From: Bdellovibrionales bacterium
GTDB taxonomy: Bacteria; Bdellovibrionota; UBA1018; CAIMNF01
Length of the DNA stretch: 64,000 nt
Assembly: GCA_947502835.1 (NCBI GenBank)
Contig: CANNBJ010000004.1
Span: 295,669-359,668, forward strand
Direction: 5' to 3'
Part shown: piece after piece, positions 15,351-60,696 of the stretch
Layout: every line of letters begins with the position of its first letter
How positions within the stretch are numbered: position 1 is the stretch's first letter
Translations under genes and position numbers: made by a program
The notes under the pieces: model-generated
Database searches by the model: none
The model's input: the letters and a program-made list of their open reading frames with translations, nothing else
What the model was told of the DNA's origin: nothing

Positions 15351-16376
15351 CTAGCTGCGAATTGTTTGAGAGTTTCGGATTCGCATGCTGATCTGTTTTC
15401 CGAGCTCGGCAAATGAGTTCATATTCAGAGGAAACTCAAGGAGCACATGAGTGAAGCTCAAGAATGCAAGCCACCTGAGTCCAAGGGAATAGCTCAACGA
15501 GTACAGGACCACCGAGGCCACCCAAAGAAGAACCACGAGCAGGATGCGTGCCCTGGAAACTTGATGCCAGCGGATGACTTCCGTTTTACTGAACCAGTTC
15601 AAGTAGTGATACATATAGGAAAATGAAATTAAGCGCATCAGCATGATTCCTGTCGCTGAACCAAAGAGTTGCTCGTTCACCTGCACAAGGGTGGGTTGGT
15701 TCGAGAAATCGGCATCAAAAACCCTTTGCAGAATGCTCAAGTTGAGTTGAAAAAAGCCGTCTCCTTCGCTGAAGTATGAATCCTTCCCGTACTCAGTTGC
15801 AGCGATGAACTGATGACCCTGAAAAAGCGTGCAAAGAAGCACAGGGCAGAGAAGAAAGACCGCAAATGAGATCATCCCCGACTTGCTTTTGGATTTGAGT
15901 GCGCCCACTAAAATAAAGACGCCTGTAAAAACAAATACGTGAATGAGAGTGGGGAGAAGAATGCTGGAAAGCCAAGTCAGGGTGTTGTCTTGATGATCGG
16001 TGAAAATCAGATTCGAAAAAAGGATCAGGAATACAAAGCCCAACGCTTTCATGGATGCATTGCGCACGAAAGCCATGAGTGCTGAGCCCGTAAATGCAAA
16101 GAAGATTGCCTTTGTGCTCATCAGAAGATGAAACCCCAGAGTGTCCAAAGTGATCAGGACCCCGACAGCCACCAAAACCAGGAAATCGTGTTTGGACTTC
16201 GTAAAATACTTCCGATCGTGAAGCCAGCTGATTTCGGTTAAGTAATGGAGCGGTCCCAAAACGGCATAGGCAAATAAAAACAATTCAAGAGGCATGATGA
16301 ACGCTGCAATCATGCTCAGGAGCATCATTCCTATGTTCAGTTGATTGATTCGGTCTAAATGAATGGGAGTACTCAC
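15351..16376 (-). CDS. polytopic membrane protein of unknown function, lying in a low-GC segment
   Basis: 341 aa with 8 or more hydrophobic helices. AT-richer than its surroundings. Confidence 0.5.
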   Translation of the reverse strand: MSTPIHLDRINQLNIGMMLLSMIAAFIMPLELFLFAYAVLGPLHYLTEISWLHDRKYFTKSKHDFLVLVAVGVLITLDTLGFHLLMSTKAIFFAFTGSALMAFVRNASMKALGFVFLILFSNLIFTDHQDNTLTWLSSILLPTLIHVFVFTGVFILVGALKSKSKSGMISFAVFLLCPVLLCTLFQGHQFIAATEYGKDSYFSEGDGFFQLNLSILQRVFDADFSNQPTLVQVNEQLFGSATGIMLMRLISFSYMYHYLNWFSKTEVIRWHQVSRARILLVVLLWVASVVLYSLSYSLGLRWLAFLSFTHVLLEFPLNMNSFAELGKQISMRIRNSQTIRS

Positions 16377-26699: not shown

Positions 26700-26867
26700 G
26701 GTGCCGAGACCTTACTAAACGGGGCTTGATCTGGCTAGGATGAATTGCCCGGCAAGGCGCCGAAAATCCCTTGAAATCATTGAAAAAGGGGCGGATTTTC
26801 CGCGTGGCGGGACGAAGAATCTCAGCCGGCATCCCTGAATGGGGTTGTCCTGAGGCTGCTCTGCCCT

Positions 26868-26979
26868 GAAGAGATTGGTACGACCTGTGTTGCGGCCGAC
26901 TCTCGCGAGTGAGGACACACGAAAGCGAGGCCGCAGGACGCGGCTCGGAGGCCAAAACACAGGTCGTACCAATCTCTTC
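26868..26979. repeat. palindromic repeat element copy 1 (conserved ~60-nt core flanked by a copy-specific perfect 24-bp inverted repeat)
   Basis: Arms gaagagattggtacgacctgtgtt / aacacaggtcgtaccaatctcttc. Core gccgactctcgcgag...cgaaagcgaggccgcaggacgcggctcggaggcc is shared, in reverse complement, with the copies at 47175, 48925 and 60541. Confidence 0.7.
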
Positions 26980-27029
26980 ATGGTGAGTGCAGCTCTCGGC
27001 TCAATCTTATTCAAAGATGGCGGTTGGAT

Positions 27030-46796: not shown

Positions 46797-47048
46797 ATGA
46801 GAGAAAATCTTCATCCAATTTATCGTGACGTTGTGTTCAAGGATCTGCAAAGCGGGTTCTCGTTCCTTACTCGTTCCACCATCCAAACCAAGGAAACCAT
46901 TACCTGGGAAGATGGAAAAGAGTACCCACTTGCGAAGGTCGAAATTTCTTCCAAGTCCCATCCGTTCTACACCGGCCAAGACCGTCGTGTGGATACGACC
47001 GGACGTGTTGAGAAGTTCATGAACAAGTACAAGAACCTCAAGAAGTAA
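46797..47048 (+). CDS. rpmE: 50S ribosomal protein L31, Cys-less (type B-like)
   Basis: [14 protein letters not shown]...[20 protein letters not shown] matches L31. No CxxC zinc motif. Confidence 0.8.
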
Positions 47049-47092
47049 AGCTTTCCTCCAACGGTAAATCCCGTTTAGCCACGGGAGTTGCC

Positions 47093-47138
47093 TAGGCCCT
47101 CTTCCTTTAGCCAGGAAGTGGGCCTTTTTTTTGGCCCG
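47093..47138 (+). terminator. intrinsic terminator downstream of rpmG-rpmE
   Basis: Hairpin ggccctcttcc-tttagcca-ggaagtgggcc (11-bp stem with one mismatch) followed by T8. Confidence 0.65.
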
Positions 47139-47174
47139 CCGTGAGTGGGAGTTATTTCAAGTGATTTAGAGCTA

Positions 47175-47284
47175 CCTTGCTTTGGATTGATGGTTCTTTG
47201 GCCTCCATGCCGCATCCTGCGGCCTCGCTTTCGTCAGTCCTGACTCGCGAGAGTCGGCCAAAGAACCATCAATCCAAAGCAAGG
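47175..47284. repeat. palindromic repeat element copy 2 (conserved core, 29-bp perfect copy-specific arms)
   Basis: Arms ccttgctttggattgatggttctttggcc / ggccaaagaaccatcaatccaaagcaagg. Core ...gccgcatcctgcggcctcgctttcgtcagtcctgactcgcgagagtcggcc. Confidence 0.7.
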
Positions 47285-47386
47285 CGGACCAAAGCACCTG
47301 AACGAGTGCACCACTACGGAGGGCCAAAAAAATGACCGCATCTTGGCATTTTTGAGCAGACTTATTCTCAGGGGGTCTTTTCGTCG

Positions 47387-47420
47387 GGAGTTACGACTTT
47401 TTGAGCGAGCCAAGGATGGC
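47387..47420. repeat. 34-bp perfect direct repeat, copy A (overlaps the 3' end and stop codon of the AAA+ ATPase gene)
   Basis: ggagttacgactttttgagcgagccaaggatggc is identical to 48804-48837. Confidence 0.85.
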
Positions 47421-48557
47421 TCCTGCCCATAGACGTTGCAAGAAAAGCTCGTAAGGGAGAATCTCGATTCCGTCTTCGGTTTTCGAGGCCTCGCTGAATC
47501 TACCCACGATCATTCCCCGGGGGACTTTGGATTCTTTTAAAAACGCCCGAAGGCCCTTGAAGTGATCGTCCTTCACTTGTTTTGAAAATTTGATTTCAAT
47601 CGCAATTTCACGATCGATGATCAGATCCACCTCATAAGATTTGCTTCGCCAATAACTCATTTCACTCAATGACCTTGAATAAGAAAGGTAGCTTCTGACC
47701 TCTGTCATGATGAACTGCTCAAAGGAGATGCCGATGTCACTATGTGCCTCGCTCAGGTGAAACCTCTTACAGAGGAAATTTGCAACACCACAATCAAACC
47801 AGTACAACTTCGAGCGGCTACTGCCTTTGCGACTCATTCGAGACCGATAGGGCTCAAGCGTGAACGCGAGCAGCGTATCCTTCAGGACTTCGAGATGGTT
47901 CTCAATGGTACGGGCGGGAACACCCGAATCACTGGCGAGTGCTGCAAAATTTAATTCTTGTCCGTTTCCAAGGGCAGCAACTTCAAGGAATCGGACAAAA
48001 CGCTCGTAATTTCGAACCAGAGCTTCGGCCTTGATCTCCTCTGAAAGATAGGTTCGGACATAGGCTTTGAGGTCCTGAAGGGGCTCTTCTGATTGATAGA
48101 TTCGAGGCAGGCCTCCGTAATTCAGGTAGCGAATCAAGTCGAAGTCTGTGATTTCAGAATGACTCAGGGGAAATAAATGGAGTTCGCGCGCCCTCCCCGC
48201 GAGTAGATTGGCTCCACCTCGCTTGAGTTTCCGCACCGAGCTTCCCGTCAAAAGAAACCGTTTTTCGCTGTTTTCAATGAGACGGTGAACCTCATCGAGC
48301 AATTTCGGAAGCTTTTGAATCTCATCGATGACTACGAAGCGAGTTTCAGGTTTGATTTTCTCAGACAAGGCCTTGGGTCGAAGGAGCAGTTCCTCGTAAA
48401 GATCATCATCAAGTAGATCAAAAATCTGCGCGTCCGGAAGACGGGAGCGAACCAGCGATGATTTGCCGGTTCCTCTTGGACCAAAAAGGAAGAGGTTTGA
48501 TTTTTGTAGATGTGCTTCCAGCTTTAGGGATCGAGGATACATGTCGAAAGTATACAA
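47391..48557 (-). CDS. AAA+ ATPase with C-terminal DUF4143-type domain, in a low-GC island
   Basis: Walker A LFGPRGTGKSSL. Walker B VVIDEIQKLP. Architecture typical of the DUF4143 ATPase family. GC clearly lower than flanks. Confidence 0.7.
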   Translation of the reverse strand: MYTFDMYPRSLKLEAHLQKSNLFLFGPRGTGKSSLVRSRLPDAQIFDLLDDDLYEELLLRPKALSEKIKPETRFVVIDEIQKLPKLLDEVHRLIENSEKRFLLTGSSVRKLKRGGANLLAGRARELHLFPLSHSEITDFDLIRYLNYGGLPRIYQSEEPLQDLKAYVRTYLSEEIKAEALVRNYERFVRFLEVAALGNGQELNFAALASDSGVPARTIENHLEVLKDTLLAFTLEPYRSRMSRKGSSRSKLYWFDCGVANFLCKRFHLSEAHSDIGISFEQFIMTEVRSYLSYSRSLSEMSYWRSKSYEVDLIIDREIAIEIKFSKQVKDDHFKGLRAFLKESKVPRGMIVGRFSEASKTEDGIEILPYELFLQRLWAGAILGSLKKS

Positions 48558-48803
48558 TAAACGGCAATTACTTGCTGAAAAATAATCAAAATCGGCAACA
48601 CAATGCTGAAATATCTTTTAATAATGATTTCATAAACTTGTAATTGCCCGAGGCGGGGGCGATCTCTCGGAAGAATCCCTTTTCATCGGGCCTGGCCTTC
48701 AGCCGTGTGGAGGAGCCCCCCTTTTGATTGATGAATTTTTGAAACTGGCCTCGTTCGCCGTTGATGGTTGGAAGATCGAATCAGTAAACCCTTTCATTCA
48801 TCA

Positions 48804-48837
48804 GGAGTTACGACTTTTTGAGCGAGCCAAGGATGGC
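48804..48837. repeat. 34-bp perfect direct repeat, copy B (duplicate of the ATPase 3' end, about 250 bp upstream of the ATPase start)
   Basis: Identical to 47387-47420. Confidence 0.85.
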
Positions 48838-48924
48838 GACAGCGAAAAGAACAGGATGTTCGGGGGGAGTGCCAAGTGGTCTCTTTGAGTGGGCATGGCC
48901 TTTGGGCTTGTGGAGGCGAACCCC

Positions 48925-49020
48925 TTTGGTTCTTGGAGGTTTAGCCGACTCTTGCGAGTCAGGACTGACGAAAGCAAGGCCGCAGGATGCGGCTCGGAGG
49001 CTAAACCTCCAAGAGCCAAA
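48925..49020. repeat. palindromic repeat element copy 3 (reverse orientation relative to copy 2), nested inside a further 21-bp inverted repeat (48878-48898 / 49047-49067)
   Basis: Arms tttggttcttggaggtttagcc / ggctaaacctccaagagccaaa. Core gccgactcttgcgagtcaggactgacgaaagcaaggccgcaggatgcggctcggagg. Outer IR ggtctctttgagtgggcatgg versus ccatgcccactcaaagaggcc. Confidence 0.7.
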
Positions 49021-49074
49021 TGGGATAACCTACCTAAATCTAAATGCCATGCCCACTCAAAGAGGCCAGTTTGA

Positions 49075-49449
49075 TCACTGCTGACCTGAACCCGTGGCCT
49101 CAAGTTTCGCCCGTTCGTCGAGGATTGCATTGAGTTTGCTCTGCGCGATGGCGTCGAACACGATGGAGAGGCCAAAGATTGAAAGCACAACCGCAAGAAG
49201 CGGGTCCGAGTCCGAATCCTTTCCTGTGATGGTTGCGATTTCCTCGGCCTTTTTGTATTCGTGAAAAATGAAATAGATCCCGCAGGTGAGCAGCGAGAGC
49301 AGGTAGACCTTCCAAAAAGAGTACCGCTCCTCTTTGAGCAGATAGTTCAGGGTCTGAATCTGTTTTCTTTGCACGATCAAGTTCCAAAGTCCGCACAAAA
49401 GAATGGTCAGGATCAGGTCAAGGGCGATGTTTCTGGGGGCTGGTCTCAT
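49075..49449 (-). CDS. small membrane protein (DUF4234-like), unknown function
   Basis: 124 aa with three hydrophobic helices. Confidence 0.45.
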   Translation of the reverse strand: MRPAPRNIALDLILTILLCGLWNLIVQRKQIQTLNYLLKEERYSFWKVYLLSLLTCGIYFIFHEYKKAEEIATITGKDSDSDPLLAVVLSIFGLSIVFDAIAQSKLNAILDERAKLEATGSGQQ

Positions 49450-57870: not shown

Positions 57871-60534
57871 ATGTCGAAATCCGGAAAATCATTTAAAAAA
57901 GTCGAAGGAGTGGATCCGTCCTCGCTTCCCAAGAATCTCGAATTCCCGAAGGTCGAGGCCGAGCTTCAGGCGCGCTGGAGCACTGAGGGCACGTACAGGT
58001 TTCACGAAAATGACACCCGCCCCGTTTTTGCTGTCGACACTCCTCCTCCCACGGTTTCGGGCTCTCTCCATGTGGGCCATATCTTCAGCTACACTCAGAC
58101 CGACATCCTGGCGCGATTCCAGCGCATGAAGGGAAAGAACGTCTTCTATCCGATGGGATGGGACGACAATGGGCTTCCGACCGAGCGGAGGGTGCAGAAC
58201 TTTTTCCACATCCGCTGTGAGGCAAATCAGCCCTACGAGCAGGGGCTTGATCTGCCGCCGATTCTCTCGACGATGACCGAAAAGGAACTCGAGGCAAAGA
58301 AGCTCCCGCAGCGGAACCTTTCGCGCAAAAACTTCATCGAGCATTGCCACAAACTCACACATGAGGACGAAAAGCTTTTCAAGAAACTCTGGAGCCACAT
58401 CGGGTTGTCAGTCGACTGGAGTCTTGAGTACGCGACCATCGACGATCACTCGCGCAAGATCGCACAGTTGAGTTTTTTGGATCTTCACCGCAAGAACGAG
58501 CTGTATCAGGTGGAAGCCCCGACCCTTTGGGATACCGACTTCCAGACCGCAGTGGCGCAGGCGGAACTCGAGGACCGTGAGATTCCGGGCGCCTTCCACG
58601 ACATTGAGTTCGAGGTTGAGGGCGGAGGCACATTCACGATCGCCACCACGAGGCCCGAGTTGCTTGCTGCCTGTGTGGGGATCACCACGCATCCATCGGA
58701 TGAGCGGTATCGCTCGCTCATTGGAAAGTTTGCGGTAAGCCCCCTGTTCGGGGTGCGAGTGCCGATTTTTGGCAGCGAGCTTGTGAATCCCGAGAAGGGG
58801 ACAGGGATCCTGATGGTCTGTACGTTCGGGGATCAAACCGACGTGCAGTGGTGGCGGGAACAGAAGCTGCCGCTCCGCCAGATCATCGGCCGGGACGGAA
58901 GGCTTCAGCCCGTGAATTTTTCGTCCCCGTTGTTTCCCTCACGGAATCCGGAAGAGGCGAGCTCGAATTATCAGGTCATTGTCGGGAAGACCGTGAAGCA
59001 GGCCCAGAAGGCCATCGTCGAAATCCTGCAAGCAAAGGGCGCGCTCAAGAATCCTCCCAAGCCCATTCAGCACGCCGTGAAGTTTTATGAAAAGGGCGAT
59101 CGGCCCGTGGAGATCCTGACCACTCGCCAGTGGTTCGTGAAACTCGTCGACAAAAAAGAAAAAATCATCGAGTACGGATCCAAAATCCAGTGGCATCCGG
59201 AGTTCATGTACTCTCGTTTCAAGAACTGGACTGAGAATCTCAGCATCGACTGGTGCATCAGCCGGCAGCGATTCTTCGGGGTCAGCATTCCGGTGTGGTA
59301 CCCGCTCGATGCAAAGGGGGCGATCGAGTACTCGCGCCCTCTGATGCCGTCACAGGCCCAGCTTCCGGTTGACCCCATGTCGGATGTCCCGGAAGGCTAT
59401 CAGGAATCCCAGCGCGGAAAGCCGGGTGGATTCATCGGAGAGTCGGATGTGTTCGACACCTGGTTCACCTCTTCGCTCACTCCGCAGCTCGGATCGCATT
59501 GGGAGGTGAATCCCGAACGCCACCGCAAGCTCTTTCCGATGGATGTTCGTCCACAGTCACACGAGATCATCCGCACGTGGGCGTTTTATACGATCGCAAA
59601 AGCGATGCTCCATGAAGAAAAAATCCCCTGGAAGCACATTGTGATCTCTGGCTGGGTGCTTGATCCGGATCGGAAGAAAATGTCAAAATCCAAGGGCAAT
59701 GTCGTGACGCCCTCGCAGTTTCTGGACGAGTTCGGTGCGGATGCGGTCCGCTACTGGTCTGGTCTTGCGCGCTACGGGGTCGATACGGCCTTTGATCCGG
59801 GCATCATGAAGATCGGGCGCAGGCTTGCCATGAAGCTCTTCAATGCGGGCAAGTTCGTGCTTGCCCAGGGGGCCATCGAGGGTGCGATCACAGAACCTCT
59901 CGATTTGGCGTTTTTGGCAAAGCTGAAAAAGCAGGTCGAAGATGCAGGGCGTGCCTTTGAAAACTTCGAGCCTGCCCAGGCGCTCATGGAGACGGAGAAG
60001 TTTTTCTGGTCGCACTTCACGGATTCTTATCTTGAGCTGGTGAAGGGCAGAACCTGGGGTGAGAAAACCTCCGCATCCGACCTTGCTGCCAAGGCTTCTG
60101 CGGTTCATGCGCTTCGTTTAGGACTGAGTGCCTTCCTCAGGCTCTTTGCACCCTTCCTTCCGTACACCACCGAAGAAGTGTGGAGCTATGGATTCACTGC
60201 GGTTTCCAAGAGCATCCATCATGCGACCTTCCCGCATGCGGGGGATTTCGACGGGGTCACAGCAGGGGATCCTGCGATCTTTGATGCGGCAATGGCAGCC
60301 CAGAGCGTGATCAACCAGCAAAAAACGGTGTCGAAGGTTTCGATTGCAAGGCCTGTGGTAAAGGCGGGCATGCGAGCCAATTCAAAAACAATCGAGAGCT
60401 TTCTTCCCGCGGCTCGTGATGTGATGGCCGCCTCCAAGGTAGAGCAGATCGACTGGATCAAGGATGAGGCTTTGTCTGCAAATGAGTTCCGGGTGGAAAC
60501 CATCGAATACGGACCGGAGCCGGTAAAGACCTAG
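57871..60534 (+). CDS. valS: valine--tRNA ligase (short, archaeal/eukaryote-like type without C-terminal coiled coil)
   Basis: HIGH-like HVGHIFSY. KMSKS. Editing domain. 887 aa. Confidence 0.85.
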   Translation: MSKSGKSFKKVEGVDPSSLPKNLEFPKVEAELQARWSTEGTYRFHENDTRPVFAVDTPPPTVSGSLHVGHIFSYTQTDILARFQRMKGKNVFYPMGWDDNGLPTERRVQNFFHIRCEANQPYEQGLDLPPILSTMTEKELEAKKLPQRNLSRKNFIEHCHKLTHEDEKLFKKLWSHIGLSVDWSLEYATIDDHSRKIAQLSFLDLHRKNELYQVEAPTLWDTDFQTAVAQAELEDREIPGAFHDIEFEVEGGGTFTIATTRPELLAACVGITTHPSDERYRSLIGKFAVSPLFGVRVPIFGSELVNPEKGTGILMVCTFGDQTDVQWWREQKLPLRQIIGRDGRLQPVNFSSPLFPSRNPEEASSNYQVIVGKTVKQAQKAIVEILQAKGALKNPPKPIQHAVKFYEKGDRPVEILTTRQWFVKLVDKKEKIIEYGSKIQWHPEFMYSRFKNWTENLSIDWCISRQRFFGVSIPVWYPLDAKGAIEYSRPLMPSQAQLPVDPMSDVPEGYQESQRGKPGGFIGESDVFDTWFTSSLTPQLGSHWEVNPERHRKLFPMDVRPQSHEIIRTWAFYTIAKAMLHEEKIPWKHIVISGWVLDPDRKKMSKSKGNVVTPSQFLDEFGADAVRYWSGLARYGVDTAFDPGIMKIGRRLAMKLFNAGKFVLAQGAIEGAITEPLDLAFLAKLKKQVEDAGRAFENFEPAQALMETEKFFWSHFTDSYLELVKGRTWGEKTSASDLAAKASAVHALRLGLSAFLRLFAPFLPYTTEEVWSYGFTAVSKSIHHATFPHAGDFDGVTAGDPAIFDAAMAAQSVINQQKTVSKVSIARPVVKAGMRANSKTIESFLPAARDVMAASKVEQIDWIKDEALSANEFRVETIEYGPEPVKT

Positions 60535-60540
60535 ACGCTT

Positions 60541-60649
60541 AAACTGTCTTTTGGGATTGGTATTTTGTCTCCGAGCCGCATCCTGCGGCCTCGCTTTCGC
60601 GCATCCTGCGCTCGCGAGAGTCGGCAAAATACAAATCCCAAACGACAGT
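60541..60649. repeat. palindromic repeat element copy 4 (conserved core, 26-bp arms); imperfect outer arms extend to 60523-60667 and include the valS stop codon
   Basis: Arms aactgtcttttgggattggtattttg / caaaatacaaatcccaaacgacagtt. Core ctccgagccgcatcctgcggcctcgctttcgcgcatcctgcgctcgcgagagtcggc. Outer arms gtaaagacc / gggtctttac. Confidence 0.7.
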
Positions 60650-60696
60650 TCATGCCTCGGGTCTTTACGCTTCCACGCACCTTATTTTCAATTTAG

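What the first reader, a model, noticed from the sequence alone, without database searches (positions are those of the whole stretch)
47175..49067. Low-GC AAA+ (DUF4143) ATPase gene bracketed by perfect 34-bp direct repeats and by an inverted pair of palindromic elements: possible mobile cassette or recombination footprint
The ATPase gene (47391-48557, minus strand) has visibly lower GC than its surroundings. Its last 10 codons plus stop (47387-47420) are duplicated exactly at 48804-48837, about 250 bp upstream of its start. Immediately outside each direct repeat lies a palindromic element (copy 2 at 47175-47284; copy 3 at 48925-49020) in opposite orientations. The arrangement element-DR-gene-DR-element resembles an integrated or circularisable cassette: site-specific recombination within the 34-bp repeat would excise a circle carrying the ATPase gene. 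It could also be a remnant of a tandem gene duplication.
Basis: seen in the sequence. Interest (0 to 1): 0.62.

Follow-up and report, generated by a model that had tools for sequence, protein, structure and literature searches.

The report
Accessory ATPase gene amid hairpin repeats
A strain-variable ATPase gene of a candidate anti-phage type sits between two core genes in a spacer packed with long hairpin repeats, and the "perfect 34-bp direct repeat" is two copies of the conserved tip of one such repeat, not an excision site.

Summary
The 34-bp repeat is exact, the ATPase gene (47391-48542, minus strand) has the lowest GC3 of the long ORFs in the window, and two palindromic elements flank it in opposite orientation.

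The cassette interpretation does not hold.
- The 34-mer is the 5' half of the core of a dispersed hairpin repeat (type B). This repeat occurs at six other sites in related Bdellovibrionales sequence, none with an ATPase nearby.
- DR-b lies in a resident B element.
- DR-a is a truncated B core fused to the ATPase ORF. It encodes the last 9 codons and the stop.
- The flanking palindromes are type-A members of the same repeat superfamily: long variable stems capped by a conserved core with two GGA-loop hairpins. There are four in the window.

At least four alleles of this rpmE/DUF4234 spacer exist among genomes 97-100% identical to the window:
- ATPase with both repeat copies;
- ATPase with DR-a only;
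- no ATPase but a full B element;
- neither.

A fifth strain carries a 77%-identical ATPase with a different junction. No allele matches recombination between the two 34-bp copies.

The ATPase matches PADLOC candidate PDC-S01 and is under purifying selection. Best reading: an accessory gene in a hotspot remodelled through hairpin repeats.

The parts
46797..47048 (+). rpmE (ribosomal protein L31), the conserved left flank gene
   Evidence: Pfam PF01197, E 5.6e-25. Conserved next to the locus in all relatives.
47095..47133 (+). rpmE terminator hairpin and T-run. The T-run is also the outermost part of the left arm of element 2.
   Evidence: Read from the sequence. Conserved in L044, L113 and L115. 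The fold shows it as a separate hairpin.
47124..47340 (-). The core is 47197-47262, the perfect 29-bp arms are 47175-47203/47256-47284, and the outer arms are degenerate. The strand given is the one on which the loops read GGA.
   Evidence: dG -141 kcal/mol, z -12.6. An orthologous copy is present without any ATPase in L113 and L128.
47337..47370 (+). 'X': one arm of a third hairpin-repeat type (type C). It ends at the insertion point ...CTCA^ that all alleles share.
47376..47387 (+). Left copy of a 12-nt imperfect direct repeat, TCTTTTCGTCGG, at the left edge of the 1.29-kb ATPase unit
   Evidence: L044 X1 has a single copy (CCTTTTCATCGG) at an unoccupied site.
47387..47420 (+). DR-a: a truncated type-B core (closing stem, the 5' strand of P2 and the first GGA hairpin GCCAAGGATGGC) fused to the 3' end of the ATPase ORF. 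It encodes AILGSLKKS and the stop.
   Evidence: Homology to the ATPase in another locus (L001) stops at 47427. Other tails follow LW(A/S)G in L134 and P0002.
47391..48542 (-). ATPase gene (383 aa): AAA_14 + DUF4143 (PD-(D/E)XK-like), PADLOC candidate PDC-S01
   Evidence: dN/dS is 0.035 against L044. GC3 is 0.509.
48543..48599 (-). ATPase 5' leader or promoter region that travels with the gene
   Evidence: DNA homology with L001 (a different genomic context) extends to 48599. No sigma-70 consensus was found.
48678..48689 (+). Right copy of the 12-nt imperfect direct repeat, CCTTTTCATCGG
48686..48727 (+). 'Y': a degenerate relic of the 5' part of a second type-A copy. That copy (el2') is intact in the ATPase-less allele L128.
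48737..48871 (+). Type-B hairpin repeat 'B2': left arm 48737-48803 and core 48804-48871, which contains DR-b at 48804-48837. Its right arm is missing here and replaced by el3.
   Evidence: The complete hairpin is seen in L044 and L128.
48874..49071 (+). The core is 48940-49005, with the P1 hairpin at 48979-48993. It is absent from L044, L128, L129 and L114, apart from its right arm.
49075..49449 (-). DUF4234 gene, the conserved right flank gene
   Evidence: Pfam PF14018. Conserved synteny.

Best explanation
The spacer between the convergent core genes rpmE and DUF4234 is an 83-bp terminator in distant relatives. In this lineage it has become a 2-kb mosaic of long hairpin repeats of at least three related types (A, B and C).

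A roughly 1.3-kb unit sits in this mosaic. It holds one gene and its leader: an AAA+/PD-(D/E)XK ATPase of the PADLOC candidate-defence family PDC-S01. The unit is an accessory, strain-variable insertion.

The 34-bp 'direct repeat' is the conserved 5' half of the type-B core.
- DR-b belongs to a resident B element that varies independently of the ATPase.
- DR-a is a truncated B core to which the 3' end of the ATPase ORF was joined, just after the codons for LWAG. Repeat sequence therefore supplies the last 9 codons and the stop.

The two flanking palindromes are type-A repeats. They arrive and leave independently of the gene.

Inferred mechanism: the gene entered, is lost and is exchanged between strains by two routes. 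One is homologous recombination in the conserved flanks and in the conserved repeat cores. The other is illegitimate recombination at the bases of hairpins. Site-specific recombination between the two 34-bp copies is not involved.

Shown: the anatomy, the repeat-family membership of the 34-mer, the alleles and the selection on the gene. Inferred: the recombination mechanism and the defence role.
For: 1. The 34-mer is a repeat-family core. Complete B cores are 85-97% identical to the window's and have their own long arms. They occur at L003, L010, L035, L050, L075 and L077 with no ATPase gene in the stretch of contig fetched. L077 matches the 34-mer at 33 of 34 positions. The full B hairpin folds at -107 kcal/mol, z -13.

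2. A and B cores share architecture and sequence. The alignment score is 39 against 25.6 +/- 3.9 for shuffles, and 17 for the reverse complement.

3. The A core structure is supported in 31 copies. 92.4% of cells are paired against 76.6% when shuffled, with 138 double-sided changes against 41.

4. Alleles:
- L115-117: no elements and no ATPase.
- L113: el2 but no ATPase.
- L128, L120, L123: el2, el2' and a full B, no ATPase.
- L114, L125, L135: no ATPase and no B.
- L129, L130, L133: ATPase with DR-a but no B2, DR-b or el3 core.
- L044: ATPase with a complete B hairpin and no el3.
- Window = L127 (100% identical).

5. All alleles share the insertion point CTCA^TCGG(A/G)CC.

6. Most mapped breakpoints fall at or within a few bases of hairpin boundaries. 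These are the DR-a right edge (3' end of the first GGA hairpin), the L044 el2' junction (3' end of P1), the L114 junction (inside P1) and the right side of the L129 junction (3' end of P1).

7. L134 has flanks 97.7% identical to the window, but its ATPase is 77.3% identical with a different tail (TLFSRD*) joined to a B-type arm. Its sequence from the el2 outer arm onward is L113-like, which indicates allelic replacement with a crossover inside el2.

8. ATPase identity and state: PDC-S01 at E 3.9e-58; AAA_14 + DUF4143; dN/dS 0.035; lowest GC3 in the window. Relatives at 85-86% identity sit in a different context, Zn-ribbon/YitT.
Against: - The order of events cannot be fully reconstructed. L114's junction contains 26 nt that cannot be derived from the window allele by simple deletion, so an unobserved intermediate or imported allele must be assumed.
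- A 12-nt imperfect direct repeat (10 of 12 positions) brackets the 1.29-kb unit. This could be a target-site duplication, which would point to transposition-like insertion rather than recombination.
- In L044 the duplicated stretch is about 50 nt with 48 matches, closer than B copies at different loci. The two copies are therefore sister copies (local duplication or gene conversion) and not independent family members.
- No experimental evidence exists that PDC-S01 proteins defend against phage (PMC12988326). The neighbours here are housekeeping genes, not a defence island.
- All comparison sequences are metagenome contigs, and assemblies break at these repeats.
Confidence: 0.68

Rival explanations
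1. Integrative, circularisable cassette. The two 34-bp copies would be attL and attR, and site-specific recombination between them would excise a 1417-bp circle carrying the ATPase.
For: There is an exact 34-bp direct repeat around a single low-GC gene. The gene is present or absent among close strains. The Logan unitig L137 spans exactly the interval between the repeats, although any repeat of 31 bp or more produces this.
Against: - No allele has the predicted empty site. The ATPase-less alleles L128, L120 and L123 retain the B left arm (48737-48803) that lies between the repeats. L114, L125 and L135 have no 34-mer at all.
- The ATPase-positive alleles L129, L130 and L133 lack DR-b.
- The 34-mer is a dispersed repeat core.
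- The duplication predates a strain split with dS of about 0.36 and is explained by constraint on both copies.
- No integrase or transposase gene was called within 4-10 kb of the site.
Confidence: 0.04
2. Remnant of a tandem ATPase duplication. DR-b would be the last 34 bp of a deleted upstream gene copy.
For: DR-b equals the 3' end of the ORF and lies upstream in the same orientation.
Against: - To the right of DR-b the sequence continues as the B core (GACAGCGAAAAGAACAGGATGTTCG...). This is conserved in B elements of other loci that have no ATPase, and it is not ATPase coding sequence.
- The direction of derivation is the reverse. The ATPase family normally ends 4-8 residues after LW, and only this lineage has the AILGSLKKS tail.
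Confidence: 0.02
3. Transposition-like insertion of a defined 1.29-kb unit (47388-48677) with a 12-bp target duplication. The unit could be mobilised in trans as a B-core-derived element that picked up cargo, or by the gene's own PD-(D/E)XK nuclease in a homing-like manner.
For: - 12-nt repeats TCTTTTCGTCGG and CCTTTTCATCGG bracket the unit, and a single copy is seen at an unoccupied site in L044.
- The left end of the unit coincides exactly with the 5' boundary of the B core.
- The module shared with L001 has sharp ends at 47427 and 48599.
- Two divergent ATPases occupy the same site, both joined right after the LWAG codons.
- L113 has B arms without a core, which suggests that cores move in and out of hairpin tips.
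Against: - The 12-mer resembles the inner left arm of B elements generally, so the 'duplication' may simply be repeat homology.
- The right end of the unit has no B-core-like or inverted terminal sequence.
- Only one genomic site is known for this unit.
- No transposase has been identified.
- DUF4143 nuclease activity is untested.
Confidence: 0.15
4. The B fragment at the gene's end and the nearby hairpins are kept because they act as RNA-level regulatory modules for the ATPase transcript, for example in 3' end formation, stability or CsrA binding. On this view they are not mere debris.
For: - The cores are conserved and covary.
- Mismatches in the arms are biased 114:58 toward G.U on the GGA-loop strand.
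- One pair is G.U in 6 of 31 copies and never the A.C type.
- el2 lies in the GGA orientation downstream of the ATPase on its sense strand.
- Both substitutions in L044's DR-a are synonymous.
- CsrA is present and functional in Bdellovibrionota (PMC13443453).
Against: - On the ATPase sense strand, DR-a reads in the UCCU orientation, not the GGA orientation.
- Element orientation relative to neighbouring genes looks random: 17, 15, 14 and 11 across the four classes.
- The L134 ATPase has no B-core fragment.
- There is no Rfam match and no expression data.
Confidence: 0.1

Closest known systems
PADLOC candidate defence system PDC-S01 (COG1373; AAA_14 + DUF4143 ATPase-nuclease)
   Same: Strong HMM matches (E 3.9e-58) and the same two-domain architecture. 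Walker A (GPRGTGKS), Walker B (VVIDEIQ) and a D...E.K nuclease-like motif (VDLII...IEIK) are readable in the sequence. The gene is a single-gene unit, is patchily distributed and sits in different contexts in close relatives.
   Different: It is not in a defence island here, as its neighbours are rpmE, serB and hisS. Its C-terminal tail is repeat-derived. The function of the family is itself unvalidated (PMC12988326).
Neisseria minimal mobile elements and intergenic mosaic elements (NIMEs, dRS3, Correia). This comparison rests on my own knowledge.
   Same: A variable gene or no gene lies between two conserved genes, the spacer is built of dispersed repeats, and alleles are apparently exchanged by homologous recombination in flanks and repeats. 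This includes replacement by a divergent allele (L134) and replacement of whole repeat sets between near-identical genomes (L002 vs L009).
   Different: The repeats here are long hairpins (190-230 nt) with variable stems and conserved tips, not short conserved repeats. Natural transformation in this clade was not examined.
REP, BIME and REPIN elements, and MITEs. This comparison rests on my own knowledge.
   Same: They are abundant, intergenic and palindromic, they vary in presence or absence, and they are hotspots of rearrangement.
   Different: In REPINs and MITEs the arms or terminal repeats are the conserved part. Here the arms differ between most copies, and a 60-70-nt apical core with covarying mini-hairpins is conserved. 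No RAYT or transposase was seen.
Integron gene cassettes with attC hairpin sites. This comparison rests on my own knowledge.
   Same: A single ORF is followed immediately by an imperfect hairpin that overlaps its stop codon, and the hairpins are variable in sequence but conserved in structure.
   Different: No integrase was found. There is no GTTRRRY/RYYYAAC box, since the B core begins GTTACGA. The gene has its own leader, there is no cassette array, and the alleles do not fit recombination within the hairpin.
CsrB, RsmY and RsmZ-type CsrA-titrating sRNAs
   Same: GGA motifs are presented in hairpin loops. GAACAGGAUGUUC and GCCGCAGGAUGCGGC resemble the CsrA SELEX consensus ACARGGAUGU (from my own knowledge), with two per element spaced about 20-26 nt apart. 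The clade has CsrA.
   Different: There are only two GGA hairpins per element, they are enclosed in a very long stem, the elements are dispersed in many copies with random orientation, there is no Rfam hit, and no promoter or terminator was identified.

Membership tests
PDC-S01 / COG1373 ATPase-nuclease | Match to the PADLOC PDC-S01 profile HMMs | tested here: met
   PDLC04790 at E 3.9e-58, PDLC04789 at E 7e-48, and five further PDC-S01 models.
PDC-S01 / COG1373 ATPase-nuclease | An N-terminal AAA_14 P-loop domain followed by a DUF4143 (PD-(D/E)XK-like) domain | tested here: met
   PF13173 at E 2.6e-22 (residues 21-136), PF13635 at E 3.1e-26 (174-324), and PDDEXK_3 just above its cut-off (306-352). 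Walker A, Walker B and the D..E.K motif are readable.
PDC-S01 / COG1373 ATPase-nuclease | Embedded among other defence genes (the basis on which the candidate was proposed) | tested here: not met
   The neighbours are rpmE, rpmG, mlaD/E, DUF4234, serB and hisS.
PDC-S01 / COG1373 ATPase-nuclease | Protection against phage | not testable with these tools
   The family is unvalidated according to PMC12988326.
Site-specific integrative cassette (att-flanked) | An empty site in relatives carrying exactly one copy of the repeat, with the outer flanks joined | tested here: not met
   In the ATPase-less alleles found among the contigs read (three contigs of each type), the alleles either keep the B left arm that lies between the repeats (L128, L120, L123) or lack the 34-mer altogether (L114, L125, L135).
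Site-specific integrative cassette (att-flanked) | A repeat specific to the element's ends | tested here: not met
   The 34-mer is the core of a dispersed repeat found at six other loci.
Site-specific integrative cassette (att-flanked) | A cognate recombinase nearby | tested here: not met
   The Pfam families recorded for called genes within 4-10 kb of the site on L113, L115, L118 and L127 show no integrase, transposase or resolvase. The rest of the genome was not examined.
Integron cassette / attC | R''/R' boxes (RYYYAAC ... GTTRRRY) and an integron integrase | tested here: not met
   The B hairpin reads GGAGTTACGA...GGAGTAACTCC, and GTTACGA does not fit GTTRRRY (read). No IntI was seen in the flanks.
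MITE / REPIN | Terminal inverted repeats or stems conserved between copies | tested here: not met
   The arms of most type-A copies share no detectable similarity, while the cores are 80-97% identical.
MITE / REPIN | A target-site duplication at insertions | tested here: inconclusive
   The el3 presence/absence comparison (window vs L044) shows replacement of the B right arm rather than a clean insertion. A 12-nt repeat brackets the ATPase unit but not the hairpins.
CsrB/Rsm-type CsrA-binding RNA | GGA motifs in hairpin loops, conserved while the stems covary | tested here: met
   The P3 stems vary (GUCA/UGAC, GCGCG/CGCGC, GGGA/UCCC, GGCA/UGCC) around a GGA loop. P1 has a C-G to G-C swap in 2 copies, and P2 has C-G to U-A in 5 copies.
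CsrB/Rsm-type CsrA-binding RNA | Match to an Rfam family, transcription as a discrete RNA, and CsrA binding | tested here: not met
   There is no Rfam hit at the gathering threshold or at E <= 10. No promoter consensus was found. Transcription and binding are not testable here.

The most novel reading that the evidence does not exclude
The type A and B hairpins (and possibly type C) are an undescribed, high-copy family of structured RNA modules in Bdellovibrionales. Each is a 190-230-nt hairpin whose variable stem presents a conserved tip with two GGA-loop hairpins that bind CsrA. They would act as dispersed CsrA sponges or cis-regulators. Their conserved tips would also serve as portable recombination sites at which accessory genes such as this PDC-S01 ATPase are captured, truncated and swapped.
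Probability: 0.2. Interest if true: 0.7.

Novelty: new variant of a known kind. Interest (0 to 1): 0.45.

Why it matters
For the finding as posed, the result is mainly deflationary. The eye-catching perfect repeat is not an att site, so no new excisable cassette is involved.

Three things remain of value.

1. The locus is a well-resolved natural example of how a single candidate-defence gene is gained, lost, truncated and replaced within one species-level population. At least five alleles are documented at base resolution, and most mapped breakpoints lie at or near hairpin bases.

2. The ORF borrows its last nine codons and its stop from a repeat element, yet remains under strong purifying selection.

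3. The repeat family itself has variable long stems and a conserved, covarying tip with two GGA hairpins. Its mismatches are biased toward G.U on one strand. I found no Rfam family or paper describing it, in a phylum where CsrA is functional but its RNA partners are unknown. That would be worth a dedicated follow-up.

Tried and rejected
- **Rfam.** At the gathering threshold on the whole window, and at E <= 10 on 47100-49150, there were only chance miRNA-like hits to long hairpins. No tRNA or tmRNA is present as a possible integration target.
- **Viral contigs.** A scan for the A core gave no hit.
- **Metagenome scan of the 17-mer TTACGACTTTTTGAGCG.** Most of the 89 loci came from an unrelated, highly conserved multi-copy sequence plus some chance matches. 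Only L035, L044, L050, L075 and L077 were real B cores.
- **Promoter scan.** No sigma-70-like site was found in 46900-49200.
- **Orientation of type-A elements relative to neighbouring genes.** No bias was seen: 17, 15, 14 and 11. The idea of 3'-UTR modules in a fixed orientation was dropped.
- **L002 as a second case of a gene bracketed by inverted elements.** Its 486-aa ORF is also present in L009 without the A(+)A(-) doublet, so this is not a cassette.
- **Arms as inverted duplications of the target.** The right arm of el3 does resemble the B right arm of L044. However, L114, L129 and L013 carry a better partner arm, so the evidence is ambiguous.
- **Full ordering of the rearrangements among alleles.** I abandoned this because it needs unobserved intermediates.
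- **Literature.** Searches for DUF4143, COG1373, and Bdellovibrio with palindromic repeats found nothing on such elements or on mobility of this gene.
Full report
**1. Observation**

The 34-mer GGAGTTACGACTTTTTGAGCGAGCCAAGGATGGC is present exactly twice, at 47387-47420 and 48804-48837. None is expected by chance.

The minus-strand ORF 47391-48557 is an AAA_14 + DUF4143 ATPase. Its likely start is the ATG at 48542, which gives 383 aa, as in the 98%-identical P0001. The repeat encodes the last nine residues (AILGSLKKS), the stop, and 4 nt beyond.

The gene's GC is 0.479 and its GC3 is 0.509. That is the lowest GC3 of 32 long ORFs in a window with 54.7% GC.

Both palindromic elements exist and are inverted relative to each other. 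Two more copies lie at 26864-26983 and 60534-60658.

**2. What the palindromes are (type A)**

The four window copies share a core of about 65 nt, but their flanking arms have unrelated sequences. An exact-pattern scan of one genome per species found the core in 22 stretches of three Bdellovibrionales MAGs. With nhmmer I collected 34 full copies.

- **Arm length.** Within the 100 nt on each side of the core, the predicted outer stem holds 40-80 base pairs in most copies.
- **Core structure.** Read on the strand where the loops say GGA, the core is GAC, then P2 (CUCGC/GCGAG) enclosing a mini-hairpin with a GGA loop (P3), then a second GGA hairpin (P1, GCCGCAGGAUGCGGC), then CGGAG.
- **Support.** On 31 copies, 92.4% of cells pair against 76.6% in shuffles and 30-42% when the partners are slid. 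There are 138 double-sided changes against 41.
- **Strand bias.** Arm mismatches are biased 114:58 toward the type that is G.U on the GGA strand. One pair is G.U in 6 of 31 copies.
- **Negatives.** Rfam has no match, and orientation relative to neighbouring genes is not biased.

**3. What the 34-bp repeat is (type B)**

BLAST of the window against the fetched loci showed that 48743-48865 recurs next to type-A elements in L003 and L010, where there is no ATPase. A metagenome scan added L035, L050, L075, L077 and the orthologous locus L044.

These are a second hairpin type. The arms are semi-conserved, and the core reads (G)TTACGACTTTTTGAGCGAGCCAAGGATGGCGANAGCGAAAAGAACAGGATGTTCGNGGAGTAA(C). The architecture matches type A: P2 encloses a GGA hairpin and a second GGA hairpin follows.

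The A and B cores align significantly in that orientation only: 39 against 25.6 +/- 3.9 for shuffles, and 17 for the reverse complement. A complete B hairpin (L128) folds at -107 kcal/mol, z -13.

The 34-mer runs from the closing stem to the 3' end of the first GGA hairpin, so it is the 5' half of the core. It is nearly invariant across B copies (33 of 34 positions in L077 and L128). A perfect match between two copies is therefore unremarkable.

B usually follows an A element by 100-225 nt in a fixed relative orientation. A(+)A(-) doublets are the all-A equivalent. The pair el2 + DR-a fits this canonical doublet, whereas B2 + el3 does not.

**4. The locus in relatives**

I used SerB homologues and exact look-ups of the L31, DUF4234 and ATPase proteins. 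The window is 100% identical to ENA ERZ27280207 contig k141_2525812 (L127).

Distant relatives:
- L115-L117 (66-74% DNA identity) have DUF4234 and rpmE separated by an 83-bp terminator.
- L113 (75-85%) has el2 with the same arms, X, and B-like arms without a core, but no ATPase.
- L044 (86-89%) has the ATPase (97% aa identity). It also has DR-a, a complete B hairpin with both arms and no el3. Its repeat is about 50 nt long with two mismatches, both synonymous.

Within the 97-100% cluster there are four alleles, each seen in about three independent datasets:
- (i) the window type;
- (ii) ATPase + DR-a, with Y joined directly to the right arm of el3, and no B2, DR-b or el3 core (L129, L130, L133);
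- (iii) no ATPase, with el2-X, a partial tandem copy el2'-X', then a full B hairpin (L128, L120, L123);
- (iv) no ATPase and no B (L114, L125, L135).

All alleles share the insertion point ...CTCA^TCGG(A/G)CC. In the occupied alleles, a 1.29-kb unit (47388-48677) is bracketed by the 12-nt repeats TCTTTTCGTCGG and CCTTTTCATCGG.

L134 has flanks 97.7% identical to the window, but its ATPase is only 77.3% identical. That ATPase ends LWAG-TLFSRD* and is joined to a B-type arm with no core fragment. Its sequence from the outer right arm of el2 onward is L113-like.

**5. Consequences for the cassette idea**

- Recombination between the two 34-mers would remove the B left arm (48737-48803) and leave one 34-mer flanked by 47386 and 48838. 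No allele looks like this.
- The two copies occur separately in the population (alleles ii and iii).
- The duplication predates the split between the window and L044 (ATPase dS 0.36). Its preservation is explained by constraint on both copies, one as coding sequence and the other as B core. The B core is 66 of 68 positions identical between the two strains, while the flanking sequence is 80-89% identical.
- A tandem gene duplication is excluded, because DR-b continues into B core sequence.
- el3 and el2 vary independently of the gene.
- No recombinase gene was called within 4-10 kb of the site.

**6. The gene**

The ATPase matches seven PADLOC PDC-S01 models, the best at E 3.9e-58. The family consists of ATPase + PD-(D/E)XK proteins proposed as defence candidates by 'guilt by embedding'. 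It is very common, frequently transferred and unvalidated (PMC12988326; PMC3424549).

dN/dS against L044 is 0.035, so the gene is functional.

Homologues at 85-86% identity sit in another context, Zn-ribbon/YitT. DNA homology there spans only 47427-48599, which is the ORF up to the LW(A/S)G codons plus 57 nt of leader. Three different tails follow LW(A/S)G in three contexts. The 3' junction of the gene is therefore a recurrent breakpoint, and the tail here is repeat-derived.

**7. Mechanism (inferred)**

The spacer is a recombination hotspot. Conserved hairpin tips and flanking core genes provide homology for allelic exchange, as seen in L134 and in the near-identical genomes L002 and L009, which have entirely different hairpin sets.

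Long palindromes also promote illegitimate joins. The DR-a right edge, the L044 el2' junction and the right side of the L129 junction lie at hairpin bases, and the L114 junction lies inside the P1 hairpin.

A transposition-like origin of the 1.29-kb unit with a 12-bp duplication cannot be excluded. I give it about 0.15.

**8. Comparison and novelty**

- The gene is an ordinary member of a known candidate family.
- The behaviour of the locus resembles the minimal mobile elements and intergenic mosaics of Neisseria (from my own knowledge).
- The hairpin repeats differ from REP, REPIN and MITE elements because the tip is conserved rather than the arms.
- They differ from attC sites, having no boxes and no integrase, and from Csr/Rsm sRNAs.
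- Their GGA hairpins, their covariation and their G.U strand bias make an RNA role (CsrA binding) plausible but untested. CsrA is functional in Bdellovibrionota, and its RNA partners there are unknown (PMC13443453).

**9. Limits**

- All comparison sequences are metagenome contigs, which break at these repeats.
- The order of the rearrangements is not resolved.
- No expression or biochemical data are available.

Noticed in passing
window 26864-26983 and 60534-60658: Two further type-A hairpin repeats. Their arms are unrelated in sequence to those of el2 and el3 (34-nt arms, 91% and 85% complementary), and both are intergenic.
   Followed up: partly
L024, L031, L033, L034, L036, L042 and about 30 more loci: A highly conserved multi-copy sequence (…AAGTGACTTACGACTTTTTGAGCGAAYTGTGGATG…CCACTAAAAACGACAAGATTGGGCATGAAGCACCCTTGGCGG…) occurs in many unrelated metagenomes, including a gut metagenome assembly and a bioreactor metagenome assembly. 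It shares the 17-mer used for the scan but is not a type-B element. Its identity was not determined.
   Followed up: no
L002 4899-5444 vs L009 1115-1422; L044 1636-1790; window 47337-47370: A third hairpin-repeat type (C) has arms like AGNCTGCTCAAAAANGNCAAGATGCG / CGCATCTTGNCNTTTTTGAGCAGNCT, and 'X' next to DR-a is one such arm. In the near-identical genomes L002 and L009, an A(+)A(-) doublet and a type-C hairpin replace each other at the same intergenic site with sharp boundaries.
   Followed up: partly
L113 11380-11440 (read on the minus strand): There are B-type inner arms without a core: attcaGGAGTT-cggtttgaaaa-AACTCCaat. This suggests that the 66-nt core is gained or lost precisely at the hairpin tip.
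   Followed up: no
L002 5103/5328, L004 66/275, L020 7061/7265: Type-A elements often occur as head-to-head doublets, A(+) then A(-), with their cores 140-160 nt apart. A(+)-B pairs have the equivalent geometry.
   Followed up: partly
window 15351-16376 (minus strand): Another long ORF with unusually low GC (0.463, the lowest in the window; GC3 0.573). It was not examined.
   Followed up: no
L013 6097-6291, L077 2103-2302, L003 6374-6525: Type-A copies at non-orthologous loci of other genomes have arms resembling those of el3 (…GGGCATGGC.TTTGG…). Subfamilies with shared arms therefore exist alongside copies with unique arms.
   Followed up: no
L131, L137 and L122 (Logan ERR5863204): The same strain as the window is assembled there in three pieces. 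The pieces break inside DR-a, inside DR-b and inside the el3 core, which shows that these repeats fragment short-read assemblies.
   Followed up: yes
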